A stretch of 64,000 nucleotides of DNA from the human T2T-CHM13v2.0 reference genome, Homo sapiens. Below the pieces are notes generated by a model. The model saw nothing but the letters and a program-made list of their open reading frames with translations. It had not been told where the DNA came from and ran no database searches. The stretch lies in NCBI RefSeq assembly GCF_009914755.1, contig NC_060930.1; one strand, given 5' to 3'. A program made the position numbers and the translations under genes. Positions within the stretch are counted from its first letter, which is position 1. Each line of letters starts with the position of its first letter. Of this stretch, positions 29,641-38,685 are shown piece after piece.

Positions 29641-31669
29641 GTAATAGTATGAACATGATATTGTAATCTGTCTCTTTGTTTTTTTTCCTTCCAAAGCATA
29701 TGTGGGTAAGATGATTTACTCTAAACGAAAGTAAACCAACAGGGAAAAAAAGCTGTTTAGAATATGAAAGAGAAGAGAATGGATTGAGTCTGAGAGCAGG
29801 GAGATATGGAGATAATAAGACTGGAGAAGAGAAGAGGAGAGAAGCAAAGGGAGGGAGTTCATTTTGCTACCAGGGAATGCTGGGTTTAACTCTTCTTTCC
29901 CTGAAACGTGCAGACACCTGCAACCGCTCACTTTTGACCCTGGGTGGAAGAGATCCCTCCAGCACAGAGATAGTGGCAGGTTTTCTTCATGTTCACATTT
30001 TATGAATTTGGTGACTACTCTTTGGATATAGAAGGTGGTTCTTGAGAAAACATTCTGTTGAACACTCAACACACATACTTGCAGAACTCATTTTCATAAA
30101 GACCCCATATATGCCTCTTTAGGGGACTGAATTGAAAAAAACCAATGCCCACTAAAAAATACCTTTTCCTTCCAAAAATATCACCCTCAAACTGAAATCC
30201 ATATAATCATCTAATATGACATTTTGTCTAACCTGGATGAAAGTACCAGTCTGACCCACTTTTGAACTTGAACATAATAACAAACTTTCTAGTATTTTTA
30301 AAAAATAATCTAATACCCGTATTTGGCATTTAAAAAATGTATCTCAATAATTAGTTGCTTCTCTATTAAAGAAGGAAATTTAGTCTTAACTCTTGGAAAA
30401 ATAATTTCTATTTTCCTTTTATAAGGGAAAGTTCCTTTCCACTTTCCTGTAGGCCAGTGATGCACTGTTTAATTTATTGAGAAGTCATTCAACTGACACT
30501 CCTTAGTTGGTCCTGAGCTATCAGTCTTTCCCTTTCATTTTCTGCTGGTCTAAAAGATACACATGTCCTCCTCTTTTACATGTATTTTTCTACTTTTTAG
30601 AATTCATACCCTTCAATTTATCTGATTTATTGGCATAGAATTGTTTATAATATTTCCTCGTTATTGTTTTAATGTTGATAGAATATGTAATAAAGTCTCA
30701 TTATTCTAGAATTTAGAAATTTCTGGGGATTTTTCCCGGTTTATCTTAGCCAATCTAATTACTTTACCTATATATTATTAATCACTACAAAAAATTGGCT
30801 TTTGGTGTCTTTGGTTTTCTCTATTGTTTGTCTGTTTGCTATTTCATTGACATTTATTCTTGTCTTTACTATATCTTTCCTATGCTTATTTGAGTTTCAT
30901 TTCATTCTTTTTATAACTTCTTAAGGTAAAAACATATATTATTGATTTTAAACCTTTTTTCCTAATACGAACATTTAGAGTTATAAATTTTTCTCTAAAG
31001 CACTGCTGTGTCTACAATTCCCACATTTTGAAATATTGTATTATCAGTCAGGTCTAAATACATATTTGTTAGTTTTCTTTGAGATTTCTTATTTGATCTA
31101 TAGGTGATATAGAAGTTTGTTGCTTAATTTCCAAATCTTTGAAGATTTCCAGATATATGTTTCTTATTCACTTCTGAAGTAGTATTGTTTTGTTCAAAGC
31201 GTGTTTAGAACTGTTTCAATTATTTAATATTTATTGAGACATTTTATAGCTTACACAAGTGCTCTATCTCTGTGAATGTCTCATGTGCACTTAAAAATAA
31301 TATTTATTCTACTGTTGCTGGATGTAGAATTCTACAAATGTCAATTTGATTTTGTTGACAGTATTGTTCAAATCTTCAATATCTTTACTGATTTATGCCA
31401 TTTTTTAAAAATCATTTACTGAGACGGGAGTATAAAAACCTTTAATGACAATTGTGGATTTGTCTACTTCTCCCTTCAGCTCTGTCATTCTTTGCTTCAT
31501 ATATTTTGAAGTTCTGTTTTTAGGTGAATACCCATTTATGATTGCTGTCTCCTCTTAATGAACTGACCTGTTTAAAATTGTGAAATGTTTCCCTTGATCA
31601 ATACTTTCATTCTGAAGTCTACTTTGATCTTAATATGGACACAACTACTTTTCCTATTCTTATCTTTTA

Positions 31670-32278
31670 ATTTTTATTTCTATTAACTATTTCTTAATTG
31701 ACAAGTAAAAATTGTATATATTTATGGTATGCAGCATAATGTTTTGGTATATGTGTATATTGGGGAATAGTTGAATTAAGCTATTTAACATATACATTAC
31801 CTCACATGCCATTTTTCTTGGTGTGAACACTTAAAATCTACTCTATTAAATAGGCAACTTTCAAATCGACAATATATTATTAACTGTAGTCATCATAATG
31901 TGCAATAGATCTCTTGAACATATTCCTCCTGTCTAACTGAAATTTTGTGTCTGACTGACATCTCCCCAGTGAACCATGCCTCAGCCTCTGGTAACCACCA
32001 TTTAACTCTGTTTCTATGAGTTTGACACTTTTATACTCCACATGTAAGTGAGATCATATGGTATTTGTTGTTCTTTCTTTGCCTGTCTTGTTTCACCTAA
32101 TATAATATACTCCAGGTTCATTCATGTTGTTGCAAATGGTTTCCTACTTTTTAAAAGATGAATAGTTATTCCATTGTGCATATATACCACATTTTCTTTA
32201 TCTATTCATCCAATAATGAACACTTAGGTTAATTTTATATTTTGGCTATTGTGAATGATGCTTCAATGAACATGGAAT
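31670..32278 (-). mobile_element. L1MA (MA8/9-type) 3' end
   Basis: 'ttaattgacaagtaaaaattgtatatatttatggta...catgtaagtgagatcatatggtatttg'. Confidence 0.8.
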
Positions 32279-32653
32279 AGGCACAACTTTCTTTTTAAAT
32301 TCATGTTTGCATGACATACATTTTACCACCCTTTAATTTTAAACTATTCTTGTCTTTACATCTAATGTATGTCTCTTTTAAGCAACTTATAGTTGGGCCT
32401 TGGTTTTTAATCTAATCTGGTGAACTTTATCTTTGATTGGGCAGTTTATTTCATTTACATATAATGCAGTAATTGCTACATTGTTTATAAATATGCTACC
32501 TTGTAATTTTTTGTAATTTTTTATTTGTTTCAGATTCTCTCTAGTCTCTTCCCCTTTTTTTCTTCCTTTTTTTTGGATTGAGTACATGTTAGTATTTTAT
32601 TTCATCTCCTCTACTGGCTTCTGGTTTATCATCATATTTTTTTGTTTTCATTT

Positions 32654-33906
32654 ACTTTTGTTTGTTTTATTATTATACTTAAAGTTCTGGGGTACATGTG
32701 CAGAACGTGCAGTTTTGTTACATAGGTATACACGTGCCATGGTGGTTTGCTGCCCATCAACCCGTCACCTACGTTAGGTATTTCTCCTAATGTTATCCCT
32801 CCCCTAGCTCCCCACCCCTACAGGCCCCAGTGTGTGATGTTCCCCTCACTATGTCCATGTGTTCTCATTGTTCAACTCCCACTTACGAGTGAGAACATGT
32901 GGTGTTTGGTTTTCTGTTCTTGTGATAGTTTGCAGAGAATGATGGTTTCCAGCTTCATCCATGTCCCTGCAAAGGACATGAACTCATCCTTTTTTGTGGC
33001 TGCATAGTACTCCATGGTGTATATGTGCCATATTTTCTTTATCCAATGTATTATTGATGGACATTTGGGTTGGTTCCAAGTCTTTACTATTGTGAATAGT
33101 GCTGCAGTAAACATACATGTGCATGTGTCTTTATAGTAGAATGATTTATAATCCTTAGGGTGTATATCCAGTAATGGGATTGCTGGGTCAAATGGTATTT
33201 CTAGTTCTAGATCCTTGAGGAACTGCCACACTGTCTTCCACAATAGTTGAACTAATTTACACTCCCACCAACAGTGTAAAAGCATTCCTGTTTCTCCACA
33301 TTCTCTCCAGCATCTGTTGTTTCCTGACTTTTTAATGATCGCCATGCTAACTGGCATGAGATGGTATCGCATTGTGGTTTTAATTTGCATTTCTCTAATG
33401 ACCAGTGATGATGAGCATTTTTTCATATGTCTGTTGGCTGCATAAATGTCTTATTTTGAGAAGTGTCTGTTCATATCCTTTGTCCACTTTTTGATGGGGT
33501 CGTTTGTTTTTTCTTGTAAATTTGTTTAAGTTCCTTGTAGATTCTGGATATTAGCCCTTTGTCAGATGAGTAGATTGCAAAAATTTTCTCCCATTCTGTA
33601 GGTTGCCTATTCACTCTGATGATATTTTCCTTTGCTGTGCAGAAGCTCTGTAGTTTAATTAGATCCTATTTGTCAATTCTGGCTTTTGTTGCCATGCTTT
33701 TGGTGTTTTAGACATGAAGTCTTTGCCCATGCCCATGTCCTGAATGGTATTGCCCAGGTTTTCTTCTAGGATTTTTATGGTCTATCTATTTTGTTGAGCT
33801 TTTCAAAAAACCAGCTCCTGGATTCATTGATTTTTGGGAGGGTTTTTCGTGTCTCTGTCTCCTTCAGTTCTGCTCTGATCTTAGTTATTTCTTGTCTTCT
33901 GTTAGA
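32654..33906 (-). mobile_element. L1PA7-like truncated element with internal deletion
   Basis: ORF2 C-terminus ORF 32872..33426; L1PA7-type 3'UTR; TSD tttgttttcattt at 32641-32653 and 33907-33919. Confidence 0.88.
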
Positions 33907-34078
33907 TTTGTTTTCATTTTATTAGCAGTTGCTTTACAATTTACAACATGAATTTTTAATCTATCAGAGTCTACCCCCAGTATCATACTAATTTATGTAT
34001 ATGGTAAGAATCTTACAATAGTATACTTCCATTTTCTCCCTTCCCATTTTTGTATTATTGTTTGCTATGTATATTTTA

Positions 34079-36710
34079 TTTTTTTTATTTATTTTTTTTT
34101 TTTTTAAGAGGGGAAAGCTTTATTTGTTTTGTAGTTAAATTCTTTTTTTTTTTTTCTTTTTTTTTTTATTTATTTATTTATTTTTTTTTTATTTTTTATT
34201 TTTATTGATCATTCTTGGGTGTTTCTCGCAGAGGGGGATTTGGCAGGGTCATAGGACAATAGTGGAGGGAAGGTCAGCAGATAAACAAGTGAACAAAGGT
34301 CTCTGGTTTTCCTAGGCAGAGGACCCTGCGGCCTTCCGCAGTGTTTGTGTCCCTGGGTACTTAAGATTAGGGAGTGGTGATGACTCTTAACGAGCATGCT
34401 GCCTTCAAGCATCTGTTTAACAAAGCACATCTTGCACCGCCCTTAATCCATTTAACCCTGAGTGGACACAGCACATGTTTCAGAGAGCACAGGGTTGGGG
34501 ATAAGGTCACAGATCAACAGGATCCCAAGGCAGAAGAATTTTTCTTAGTACAGAACAAAATGAAAAGTCTCCCATGTCTACTTCTATCCACACAGACCCG
34601 GCAACCATCCGATTTCTCAATTTTTTCCCCACCCTTCCCGCCTTTCTATTCCACAAAACCGCCATTGTCATCATGGCCCATCCCCAATGAGCCGCTGGGC
34701 ACACCTCCCAGACGGGGTCGTGGCCGGGCAGAGGGGCTCCTCACTTCCCAGTAGGGGCGGCCCGGCAGAAGTGCCCCTCACCTCCCAGATGGGGCGGCTG
34801 GCCGGGCGGGGGGCTGACCCCCCCACCGCCCTCCCGGACGGGGCGGCTGGCCAGGCAGAGGGGCTCCTCACTTCCCAGTAGGGGCGGCCGGGCAGAGGCG
34901 CCCCTCACCTCCTGGATAGGGCGGCTGGCCGGGCGGGGGGCTGTTCCCCCCACCTCCCTCCCGGACGGGGCGGCTGGCCGGGCAGAGGGGTCCTCACTTC
35001 CCAGTAGGGGCGGCCGGGCAGAGGCGCCCCTCACCTCCCGGACGGGGCGGCTGGCCAGGCAGGGGGCTGATCCCCCCACCTCCCTCCCGGACGGGGCGGC
35101 TGGCCGGGCAGAGGGGTCCTCACTTCCCAGTAGGGGCGGCCGGGCAGAGGCACCCCTCACCTCCCGGACGGGGCGGCTGGCCAGGCAGGGGGCTGATCCC
35201 CCCACCTCCCTCCCGGACGGGGCGGCTGGCCGGGCAGGGGGCTGACCCCCCCTCCCCCCTCCCAGACGGGGCGGCTGGCCGGGCGGGGGGCTGACCCCCC
35301 CACCTCCCTCCTGGGCGGGGCGGCTGGCCGGGCAGAGGGGCTCCTCACTTCCCAGTAGGGGCGGCCGGGCAGAGGCGCCCCTCACCTCCCGGACGGGGCG
35401 GCTGGCCAGGCGGGGGGCTGACCCCCCACCTCCCTCCCGGACTGGGCGGCTGGCCGGGCGGGGGGTTGACCCCCCCACCTCCCTCCTGGACGGGGCGACT
35501 GGCCGGGCAGAGGGGCTCCTCACTTCCCAGTAGGGGCGGCCGGGCAGAGGAGCCCCTCACCTCCCGGCCGGGGCGGCTGGCCGACCCCCCCCCCCCGGCC
35601 TCCCTCCCGGACGGGGCGGCTGGCCGGGCAGAGGGGCTCCTCACTTCCCAGTAGGGGCGGCCGGGCAGAGGAGCCCCTCACCTCCCGGACGGGGCGGCTG
35701 GCCGGGCGGGGGGCTGACCCCCCCCACCTCCCTCCCGGACGGGGTGGCTGCCGGGCGGAGACGCTCCTCACTTCCCAGACGGGGTGGTTGCCAGACGGAG
35801 GGGCTCCTCACTTCTCAGACGGGGCGGTTGCCAGGCAGAGGGTTTCCTCACTTCTCAGACGGAGCGGCCGGGCAGAGACACTCCTCACCTCCCAGACAGG
35901 GTTGCGGCCCAGCAGAGGCGCTCCTCACATCCCAGACAGGGCGGTGGGGCAGAGGTGCTCCCCACATCTCAGACGATGGGCGGCCGGGCAGAGACGCTCC
36001 TCACTTCCTAGATGGGATGGCGGCGGGGAAGAGGCGCTTCTCGCTTCCTAGATGGGATGGCGGCCGGGCAGAGACGCTCCTCACTTTCCACACTGGGCAG
36101 CCAGGCAGAGGGGCTCCTCATATCCCAGACGATGGGTGGCCAAGCAGAGACGCTCCTCACTTCCCAGACGGGCTGGCGGCCGGGCAGAGGCTGCAATCTC
36201 GGCTCTTTGGGAGGCCAAGGCAGGCGGCTGGGAGGTGGTTGTAGCGAGCCGAGATCACGCCACTGCACTCCAGCCTGGGCACCATTGAGCACTGAGTGAA
36301 CGAGACTCCATCTGCAATCCCAGCACCTCGGGAGGCCGAGGCTGGCGGATCACTCGCGGTTAGGAGCTGGAGACCAGCCCGGCCAACACAGCGAAACCCC
36401 ATCTCCACCAAAAAAAAACGAAAACCAGTCAGGCGTGGCGGCGCGCGCCTGCAATCGCAGGCACTCGGCAGGCTGAGGCAGGAGAATCAGGCAGGGAGGC
36501 CGCAGCGAGCCGAGATGGCAGCAGTACAGTCCAGCTTCGGCTCGGCATGAGAGGGAGAGGGAGACGGGAGAGGGAGAGGGAGACGGGAGAGGGAGAGGGA
36601 GACGGGAGAGGGAGAGGGAGACGGGAGAGGGAGAGGGAGACGGGAGAGGGAGAGGGAGACGGGAGAGGGAGAGGGAGACGGGAGAGGGAGAGGGAGACGG
36701 GAGAGGGAGC
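34079..36710 (-). mobile_element. Full-length SVA (young, tentatively SVA_E-like) with 3' transduction
   Basis: Hexamer head 36549-36709, Alu-like ~36186-36548, GC-rich VNTR ~34705-36185, SINE-R ~34201-34705, two poly-A tails; TSD tgctatgtatatttta at 34063-34078 and 36711-36726. Confidence 0.97.
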
Positions 36711-38454
36711 TGCTATGTATATTTTAAACTCCATGATATTTTGTTATTTCTGCTTTAAAGAATCAATTAATTTTTGAAGAAATTACAGTATGAAAAAGAA
36801 TTTTAGATTTGCCTGTATACTAACCGTATCTGGCACCCTTTATTCCTTTGTGTAAAATCAAGTTTTCATATATCATTATCCTTCACCTGAAGACCTTCTT
36901 TATACACTTCTTGTAGTTGAAGTCTCCTGGCAATGTATTCTCTCAGATCTGGTTAGTCTGATAATCTCTTTATTTCAACTTCATTTTTGGTGGATATTTT
37001 AACTGGTTACAGAATGTTAGGTTCACAGTCTTTTTTTTTTTTCATTTAAGAAAAAAATGGTAATTCATTATTCTATTTCCATTATTTCTGATGAGAAGGC
37101 ATTATTATTATTATTATTAATATTATTATCACTATTAGTCATTGTTATTATCATTCTCCTGTAGGTGATGTGTGTTTTTCTGTCTGCTTTTAAGATTATG
37201 TACCTTGGGACAATCATGGGCTCCCTTCATTTTTGCCTTCTCTGCCAAAGTTCACTGTGCTACGTGCTGTTAAAGATCTGAACTGGTGATTTCATATAAT
37301 TTTACCCAGGTGAATAGTCATTTATGTCTTAGCACAAGTTTAGCTAGTACTAGTCCCAATATCTGACTGAGCAGAAGCCTGATAGGATAGTTTTAAAACA
37401 GCAAACCAATAAGGAGTTTCCTAGGAATAGAGAATTCCCAGCTTGGATTTTTTCTTTTTTCCTTTTCTTTAAGCACTAAGTCATTGACGATTTTAAAGCA
37501 AGGTTTTGACTTACTCGGTGATATTATTTAGAGTGTTTTGGCTAATAATTTTAGCAAGACTATATTGAGATGAGGGGAAAAAGGAGGCTTGCTGACCCAA
37601 TAGGATGCTTTCAATTGTGCGGGTGAGAAATAGTAAAATACCTACACTAACATGAAGGTGCAGAGAAGGGAGAGGAGGGAGAATGAAAGAGATCCCATAG
37701 ACATGGATGAGGCAAAAACAACCCAACCTAGAGAAGGGCATGAATTCTGACCAAAAGTAGGTAAATGCATAGGAAGAAGGAGTACATTTATTTTAGGCCA
37801 GAAGAAAGTGAAAAGGAGAAGACTGAAAGCTCAGGGTCAACTGAGGGATGTCATTTTGAGTCACTTAATAAATTAAACAATGAATCATTGGCCTAGAGAG
37901 AAGTAGGAAGGGCACTTGGGATAAAAGGAGAACAGGAATCATTTTTCTAATAGTAAAGATTACCTTTCTCTCTTTAATGGAGAAACAACTGATTATTGAG
38001 GTTAAAATATAAAAGCAAAAAAGGTACCTTTGTATAATCCTTATACCATCAAAGAGGCAGAAGATCTCATAATAATCAGATCAGGAAAACTTTACTTACA
38101 GTCCGATCTTCACCAGTGATATATAGCAAAACCTCTCATGACATCAGGCATCTAGGCAACACTGCATCATGTCATTGCAGCTTGCTTATTTTGCTGCTGA
38201 AACATGTAGTTAAAAGTTTGATTTTATAATTCTATTCTGTTCCTGAAATGCGTTCTGAAGGATTTTTACAAACAAGGCAGTTTCTAAAAGAAGCAAGTGT
38301 CTGGATGATAGAAGAAAGCTCAAAAGTGGCCTTTTCTGCAAATCTAGCTGGCAGATCCATTTCCATCACCTGGTCACTGTATTCCCAAATTCCTAGAGGA
38401 ATTAATGAAATCTAAAGCTGGGGAGCACATTACACCTCTCATTCAAGCCCCTCA

Positions 38455-38577
38455 CTTTACAGACAATGGATCAATTAAACCATGGGTCACTGGCCTAGAG
38501 AGAAGTAGGAAGGATATTACTTTCTACTTCTCTCTAGGTCAATGATCCATGGTTTAATTGATGCATTATTTGTAAAG
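38455..38577. repeat. 58-bp-arm imperfect inverted repeat (hairpin, 7-nt loop)
   Basis: 38455-38512 versus reverse complement of 38520-38577: 51/58 identities. Confidence 0.9.
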
Positions 38578-38685
38578 AGAAGAGGAAGATAGGCTCATAG
38601 CTTCTCTCAGCTCACAGATGTTATGTGATTGGTACAAGGTCACACAGCTATTACTAGTAGAGCCTTGATTAAAAATCACATCACA

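What the first reader, a model, noticed from the sequence alone, without database searches (positions are those of the whole stretch)
37871..38577. De novo 123-nt hairpin apparently built by template switching from a donor 600 bp upstream
Seen: 38455-38512 and 38520-38577 form a 58-bp stem (51/58 Watson-Crick; four of the seven mismatches are G-U wobbles on the + strand) with a 7-nt loop. The inner 41 bp of the left arm (38473-38513) is a direct copy of 37871-37911 (37/41, including the exact 23-mer tggcctagagagaagtaggaagg). The structure interrupts a MIR-like sequence (ctcactttacaga...aaggtcacacagcta). Inference: a local templated insertion followed by fold-back synthesis created a pre-miRNA-sized hairpin in one event, a possible snapshot of miRNA or hairpin-RNA birth.
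Basis: partly seen in the sequence, partly recalled or inferred. Interest (0 to 1): 0.7.

Follow-up and report, generated by a model that had tools for sequence, protein, structure and literature searches.

The report
Old copy-error hairpin inside a MIR
A real, single-copy 123-base DNA hairpin in a human non-coding RNA intron likely arose tens of millions of years ago, when a DNA polymerase likely copied a stretch 600 bases upstream twice and then folded back on itself; it is probably a decaying scar of a known kind of copying error, not a newborn microRNA.

Summary
Observation confirmed: 58-bp stem (51/58 paired), 7-nt loop, donor match 37/41. It is not a MITE: the shared 23-mer has 3 genome-wide hits at up to 2 mismatches (2 local, 1 distant; control 1). 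The anatomy is richer than reported. Removing 38464-38580 (117 nt) rejoins a MIR-type SINE with no loss at the site. The insert reads as: a 10-nt copy of the donor, a 16-nt slip back, a 40-nt copy of the donor, a short loop, then a 58-61-nt fold-back that also copies host MIR bases. Three of four junctions show 1-3 nt of microhomology. An older 74% inverted copy of the donor region at 30322-30614 shows the donor came first. Donor and both arms each differ at 4 of 39 sites, and the arms differ by 12% (5-23%), like local Alus (13%). So it is old, with no sign of selection on pairing. The stem is too long and the loop too short for the preferred pri-miRNA shape, processing motifs are missing, and the G-U excess is on the strand opposite the annotated host RNA. 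Verdict: a clear new example of a complex germline template-switch insertion. 'One event' is plausible, not shown; miRNA birth is unsupported.

The parts
38449..38463 (+). Left piece of the host MIR-type SINE; its last 9 bases (38455-38463) are the outer part of the left arm
   Evidence: Aligns to profile positions 46-60
38464..38473 (+). First, short copy of donor 37878-37887 (inferred abortive synthesis)
   Evidence: 38463-38473 matches 37877-37887 at 10 of 11; 8 of 20000 background windows reach this; it fits the MIR profile no better than background (835 of 4000)
38474..38513 (+). Main direct copy of donor 37872-37911, after a 16-nt slip back
   Evidence: 37/41 over 38473-38513; junction table
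38514..38519 (+). Loop bases not explained by the donor (origin unresolved)
   Evidence: Junction J3
38520..38580 (+). Right arm: reverse complement of the assembled left arm, including the host MIR bases and the short copy (fold-back product); ends at 38577 or 38580
   Evidence: 51/58; 61 nt at 87%
38581..38674 (+). Right piece of the host MIR, resuming at the profile position right after 38463
   Evidence: 38581 onward fits profile positions 61-78; 4 of 4000 background stretches reach the score
38599..38615 (+). Separate 17-nt insert in the MIR; weakly resembles right arm 38527-38541; placement ambiguous by a few bases
   Evidence: Removing it as well raises the profile score to 38.6-38.8 bits; resemblance reached by 94 of 5000 background windows
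37872..37911 (+). Donor of both direct copies
37733..38020 (+). Longer region holding the donor; it has an older inverted copy 7 kb away
   Evidence: 222/299 identical to 30322-30614
30322..30614 (-). Older inverted copy of the donor region; serves as outgroup, and abuts the broken end of an old L1

Best explanation
The hairpin is a 117-base insertion in a MIR-type repeat, likely made by several template switches during repair or restart of DNA synthesis in an ancestral primate germline, and it is likely a neutral, decaying relic. Inferred path of the nascent + strand: (1) it stops after 38463 and re-primes 586 bases upstream at 37878 on 1 nt of microhomology, copying 10 nt; (2) it slips back 16 nt in the donor (3 of 4 bases match) and copies 40 nt; (3) it gains a few loop bases, folds back and copies 58-61 nt of itself, including host MIR bases; (4) it returns to the original site on 2-3 nt of microhomology with no loss of host bases. 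Shown by sequence: the pieces, their sources, their order, and that the right arm was templated by an already assembled left arm. Inferred: the polymerase path, the pathway (MMBIR/FoSTeS-like rather than canonical short-range Pol theta joining), the age (about that of local Alus, some tens of millions of years) and neutrality. I put about 0.55 on all switches falling in one event.
For: Cutting 38464-38580 raises the MIR profile score from 20.6 to 28.7 bits and joins model positions 60 and 61. 38581 onward fits the next MIR positions (4 of 4000 background) while 38464 onward does not (835 of 4000). Short copy: 10 of 11, 8 of 20000 background. The right arm contains the reverse complement of host MIR bases and of both new junctions, so it cannot be an independent copy of the donor. 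The donor is collinear on both sides with an older 74% copy, so it is the source. Single copy genome-wide. Star-like divergence, 4/4/4 of 39. Arms 12% (5-23%) against Alu pairwise non-CpG median 13.3%, 36 Alus. Complex germline insertions from up to five templates with at least 1 bp microhomology are reported (PMC8421209). Templated inserts carry about 1 error in 30 bases in worm (PMC5068794), enough for one shared change.
Against: No outgroup genome was available, so the pre-insertion state and age are reconstructed, not observed. Boundaries are not unique: among 2040 single cuts the best was 38471-38608 (32.3 bits) against 30.1 for a 117-nt cut, and a free two-jump alignment that picks a 6-mer from inside the insert scores as well (37.4 against 36.8-37.1 bits). 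Those alternatives leave the MIR-matching 38581-38598 unexplained. Microhomologies of 1-3 nt are near chance level, and junction 3 has none that I can show. The shared change at 38481 also fits two steps. The intervals are too wide to detect weak selection.
Confidence: 0.8

Rival explanations
1. Two separate events: a templated insertion from the donor first, then, after some time, an ordinary two-switch fold-back (a standard TSM), or later arm-to-arm conversion.
For: Both arms share C at 38481 where the donor, the older copy and both short copies have A. Two-switch fold-backs are common: 31,007 stem-forming TSMs in genic regions of the human lineage (PMC10710096).
Against: Donor-arm and arm-arm distances are equal (4, 4, 4 of 39). 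Two rare events would have to hit the same few bases. One error in about 50 copied bases is within reported error rates.
Confidence: 0.3
2. The hairpin is a functional or proto-functional small-RNA locus (miRNA or endogenous siRNA) made from the intron of LOC102723341.
For: It folds very stably on both strands. It lies in a lncRNA intron (hub annotation), the context in which TSM-born miRNAs are enriched.
Against: Stem 58 bp against a preferred 35, loop 7 nt against 10 or more. No basal UG at 0 of 5 offsets, no CNNC and no apical UGU on either strand (motifs recalled). No miRNA row in the hub's annotation; 0 of 20 Rfam matches reach the gathering score. Not found among the TSM-miRNA loci by searching the supplement table for '125' and '126'. 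Prior 57 of 6054. No excess conservation between arms (Fisher P=1.0).
Confidence: 0.03
3. The hairpin is a MITE or another dispersed palindromic repeat, and the donor is a fragment of the same family.
For: Palindromic, 123 nt, with a possible 3-nt direct repeat at the ends (38461-38463, 38578-38580). A third related stretch exists in the window.
Against: DNA search finds only local matches. The 23-mer at up to 2 mismatches has 3 hits against 1 control, while each copy 19% apart would hit with probability 0.16. A 29-mer from the older copy at up to 3 mismatches finds only that copy and the donor. The outer arm is host MIR sequence.
Confidence: 0.02
4. 38464-38472 is native, diverged MIR sequence whose chance 10-of-11 similarity to the donor is what attracted the switch, and the insert runs 38471-38608.
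For: Best single cut in the scan; it would explain why this donor was chosen.
Against: Priming there should continue at donor 37888, but the copy starts 16 nt earlier. The stretch fits the MIR profile at background level and 38581-38598 fits well.
Confidence: 0.08

Closest known systems
Complex germline MMB-TI (microhomology-mediated, multi-template insertions; PMC8421209, passages and part 1 of section 10 read)
   Same: Insertion copied from several nearby templates in direct and inverted orientation with 1-3 nt microhomology; 33 and 26 complex germline events in two people
   Different: Their search looks for inverted templates within 100 bp and for variants against the reference; here the direct donor is 586-602 bp away and the event is old and in the reference
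Template-switch mutation (TSM) hairpins and TSM-born miRNAs (PMC10710096, parts 1-4 of 6 and part of Dataset S1 read; PMC7954356, passages)
   Same: A fold-back makes a whole stem at once; intronic, inside or near a SINE
   Different: Their model has two reciprocal switches and misses multi-switch cases by its own statement; this needs four or more, imports foreign sequence, has a 58-bp stem (their class: 30-55) and has no miRNA annotation
Pol theta templated insertions / SD-MMEJ loop-out and snap-back (PMC7165422, PMC5068794, PMC5728401, passages)
   Same: Repeated rounds of abortive synthesis, 1-nt priming, direct and inverted copies, error-prone tracts
   Different: Templates are typically within 30 bp and first tracts rarely exceed 10 bp; here the template is about 600 bp away and tracts are 40 and 58 nt

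Membership tests
Complex germline MMB-TI | Insert copied from more than one nearby template | tested here: met
   Two donor copies plus one fold-back copy
Complex germline MMB-TI | Inverted copy within 100 bp of its template | tested here: met
   7 nt between arms
Complex germline MMB-TI | Microhomology of at least 1 bp at junctions | tested here: inconclusive
   3 of 4 junctions show 1-3 nt, near chance level; the fold-back junction is unresolved
Complex germline MMB-TI | An allele or outgroup without the insertion | not testable with these tools
   No relatives are held for this genome; the empty site is inferred from the MIR profile only
TSM hairpin (four-point model) | Inverted fragment of 15 nt or more at 80% identity or more | tested here: met
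   58 nt, 88%; criteria
TSM hairpin (four-point model) | Explained by two reciprocal switches | tested here: not met
   At least four switches if one event; the fold-back alone would qualify under the two-step rival
TSM hairpin (four-point model) | miRNA-like class: stem of 30-55 bases | tested here: not met
   58-61 bp
TSM hairpin (four-point model) | Hairpin absent at the parent node of a phylogeny | not testable with these tools
   No primate alignment available
Canonical miRNA gene | About 35-bp stem and loop of 10 nt or more | tested here: not met
   58 bp and 7 nt; preference stated
Canonical miRNA gene | Basal UG, apical UGU, flanking CNNC (recalled; each optional) | tested here: not met
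   None at 5 cut offsets on either strand
Canonical miRNA gene | Transcribed | tested here: inconclusive
   Within an intron of LOC102723341 on - by the hub annotation; no expression data seen
Canonical miRNA gene | Precise 22-nt reads from both arms | not testable with these tools
   No small-RNA data
Canonical miRNA gene | Member of a described family | tested here: not met
   0 of 20 Rfam matches reach the gathering score
MITE | Many dispersed copies | tested here: not met
MITE | Terminal inverted repeats belong to the element, not the host | tested here: not met
   The outer 9 bp of the stem are host MIR and its reverse complement
Pol theta TINS | Template typically within 30 bp; first tract rarely over 10 bp | tested here: not met
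   586 bp away; tracts 10, 40 and 58 nt
Pol theta TINS | Dependence on POLQ | not testable with these tools
   Historical event

The most novel reading that the evidence does not exclude
One multi-switch repair event imported sequence from 600 bp away and folded it into a long intronic hairpin that is processed into small RNAs, so a small-RNA gene's content came from a non-local donor; and that same donor stretch served as template on two occasions far apart in time (the 74% copy at 30322-30614 and this insert), marking a recurrent donor site.
Probability: 0.04. Interest if true: 0.65.

Novelty: new member of a known kind. Interest (0 to 1): 0.3.

Why it matters
It is a well-resolved fossil of a small, non-local, multi-switch copying event, a class that the main template-switch surveys say they do not capture (PMC10710096; PMC7954356). 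The host SINE and an older duplicate let each switch be read without an outgroup, and that approach could be used to count such events genome-wide. As biology it is probably one of thousands of neutral hairpins: 57 of 6054 TSM hairpins are annotated miRNAs.

Tried and rejected
MITE or dispersed repeat: rejected. The DNA search did not find the known 74% copy, so only the pattern scans carry weight for old families, and a family of a few dozen very old copies is not excluded (hit probability 0.035 per copy at 26% divergence). A MIR profile from the window alone failed; it worked with 200 kb of flanks. My impression from recall that the donor region is an L2 remnant got no support: no hit below E 0.3 besides the two copies in 264 kb. 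G-U bias as a sign of selection: P=0.34. Loop bases taken from the donor after a 9-nt skip: a 3-nt match, chance level, not claimed. The 17-nt insert as part of the same event: 94 of 5000 against the hairpin but 700 of 5000 against the surrounding 1 kb, chosen after the fact, not claimed. A staggered-break inversion for the older inverted copy: the predicted L1 continuation at 38021 onward was not found. Literature on the locus: 'LOC102723341' gave 1 paper, seen as a listing only; 'HDDC2 + novel miRNA + hairpin' gave 0; a search for breakpoint template distances gave 0. Dataset S2 of PMC10710096 could not be read, and its list of 6054 hairpins was not seen, so the locus may be in it.

Full report
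Observation. The stem, loop and donor match are as described: arms 38455-38512 and 38520-38577 pair at 51 of 58, with 4 G-T, 2 A-C and 1 G-G mismatch on +, and 37871-37911 matches 38473-38513 at 37 of 41. Folding is far beyond shuffles on both strands (z -15.5 and -12.8). In 264 kb (window plus 200 kb of flanks) it is the best stem of 25 bp or more with a loop up to 30 nt; the only other one is a tandem repeat.

Not a dispersed repeat. A genome-wide DNA search returns only the four local matches. That search is insensitive, since it missed a 74% copy, so I relied on pattern scans. The 23-mer at up to 2 mismatches gives 2 local hits and 1 on another chromosome, against 1 for the reversed control. 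A 29-mer from the older copy at up to 3 mismatches gives only itself and the donor, control 0. Per-copy hit probabilities are 0.16 at 19% divergence and 0.035 at 26%, so large families are excluded and a very small old one is not.

Host and boundaries. A profile bootstrapped from a neighbouring SINE copy gathered 33 copies in 264 kb with the focal region masked; I name it MIR from recall. The intact locus scores 20.6 bits. Removing 38464-38580 gives 28.7 and joins consecutive model positions, leaving a 17-nt insert at 38599-38615; removing that too gives 38.6-38.8. Against this: of 2040 single cuts the best was 38471-38608 (32.3, against 30.1 for a 117-nt cut), and a free two-jump alignment preferred a 6-mer from inside the insert, scoring 37.4 against 36.8-37.1. 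The anchored test separates them: bases from 38581 fit model positions 61-78 at a level reached by 4 of 4000 background stretches, bases from 38464 at a level reached by 835 of 4000. I therefore take a clean 117-nt insertion as the most likely reading.

Anatomy of the insert. 38463-38473 matches donor 37877-37887 at 10 of 11 (8 of 20000 background windows; the 9-mer without its flanking bases 132 of 20000). The one mismatch is a G that the main copies in both arms also carry, so the donor probably changed later. The sequence then restarts 16 nt earlier in the donor and runs to 37911. After 6 loop bases, the right arm copies everything back into the host MIR, and the MIR resumes. Junction overlaps are 1 nt, 3 of 4 nt, unresolved, and 2-3 nt. 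Because the right arm holds the reverse complement of the host bases and of both new junctions, it was templated by the finished left arm.

Direction and order. 37733-38020 has an inverted copy at 30322-30614, 222 of 299 identical, collinear on both sides of the donor, so the donor is older than the hairpin. The arms are closer to the 37.9-kb copy than to the 30.4-kb one. At 38481 both arms have C where the donor, the older copy and both short copies have A. That change arose after the short copy and before the fold-back, or was spread later between the arms. An error within one event is plausible, since about 1 in 30 bases of templated inserts is wrong in worm (PMC5068794, passages), but two steps cannot be excluded.

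Age and selection. Over 39 shared sites donor-left, donor-right and left-right each differ at 4. The arms differ at 7 of 58 (12%, interval 5-23%) and contain no CpG today. Thirty-six Alus in the same 264 kb differ pairwise by a median 13.3% at non-CpG sites. From recall, most Alus are about 30-65 million years old and human and chimpanzee differ by about 1%, so this is not recent. Hairpins may mutate faster than average, which would make the estimate too old. The arms are no more alike than each is to the donor (Fisher P=1.0), which gives no sign of selection on pairing, though power is low. Four G-U of six transitions has P=0.34, and they are on +, while the annotated host lncRNA is on -.

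miRNA test. The preferred pri-miRNA has a 35-bp stem and a loop of 10 nt or more (PMC10710096); this has 58 and 7. No basal UG, apical UGU or CNNC was found at 5 cut offsets on either strand (motifs recalled). None of 20 Rfam matches reaches its gathering score. The hub's annotation lists no miRNA here, and searching that paper's locus table for '125' and '126' showed no chromosome 6 entry near my rough GRCh38 estimate (HDDC2 offset recalled). Only 57 of 6054 such hairpins are in miRBase. Reads could not be checked.

Mechanism. Most likely a stalled or broken nascent + strand re-primed about 600 bases upstream, aborted, slipped, extended, snapped back on itself and returned to its site. This matches complex germline MMB-TI events, 33 of 103 and 26 of 99 calls in two people, with up to five templates (PMC8421209). 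It works like SD-MMEJ loop-out plus snap-back (PMC5728401, passages) and iterative Pol theta synthesis, but the distance and tract lengths exceed the typical 30 bp and 10 bp (PMC7165422, passages), so I do not file it as TINS. Template switching and TMEJ are argued to act at meiotic breaks in the human germline (PMC7615360, passages), one possible setting. The standard TSM model allows two switches and its authors note multi-switch cases it misses; a second survey calls small non-local switching unresolved (PMC7954356, passages).

Verdict. Real, single-copy, old and probably neutral: a new member of a known kind, of modest interest as an unusually legible example. Interest 0.3.

Noticed in passing
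window 30322-30614 (-) and 37733-38020 (+): Ancient local inverted duplication of about 290 bp, 74% identical, with no other copy found in 264 kb or by a genome-wide 29-mer scan. It starts where an old L1 on the - strand breaks off inside ORF2 (L1 homology ends near 30600), so the L1 remnant is bracketed by the two copies. Origin unexplained.
   Followed up: partly
window 38599-38615: 17-nt insert in the same MIR, ending in a repeat of the preceding 5 bases and weakly resembling the right arm at 38527-38541; possibly a fifth switch.
   Followed up: partly
window about 30600-37050: Old L1 on the - strand (label recalled; ORF2-like pieces by tblastn), interrupted by a younger L1 piece at about 32640-33915 and an SVA-like element ending near 36705; 30614-32100 is largely unmasked in the hub's list.
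   Followed up: partly
window 36549-36705: Perfect 19-bp purine-rich tandem array at the end of the SVA-like element (label recalled), overlapping the RefSeq enhancer 36606-37082.
   Followed up: no
flank, about 95857-95955 in window coordinates (locus L028): Tandem repeat with a 25-bp self-complementary unit that forms the only other long stem in 264 kb.
   Followed up: no
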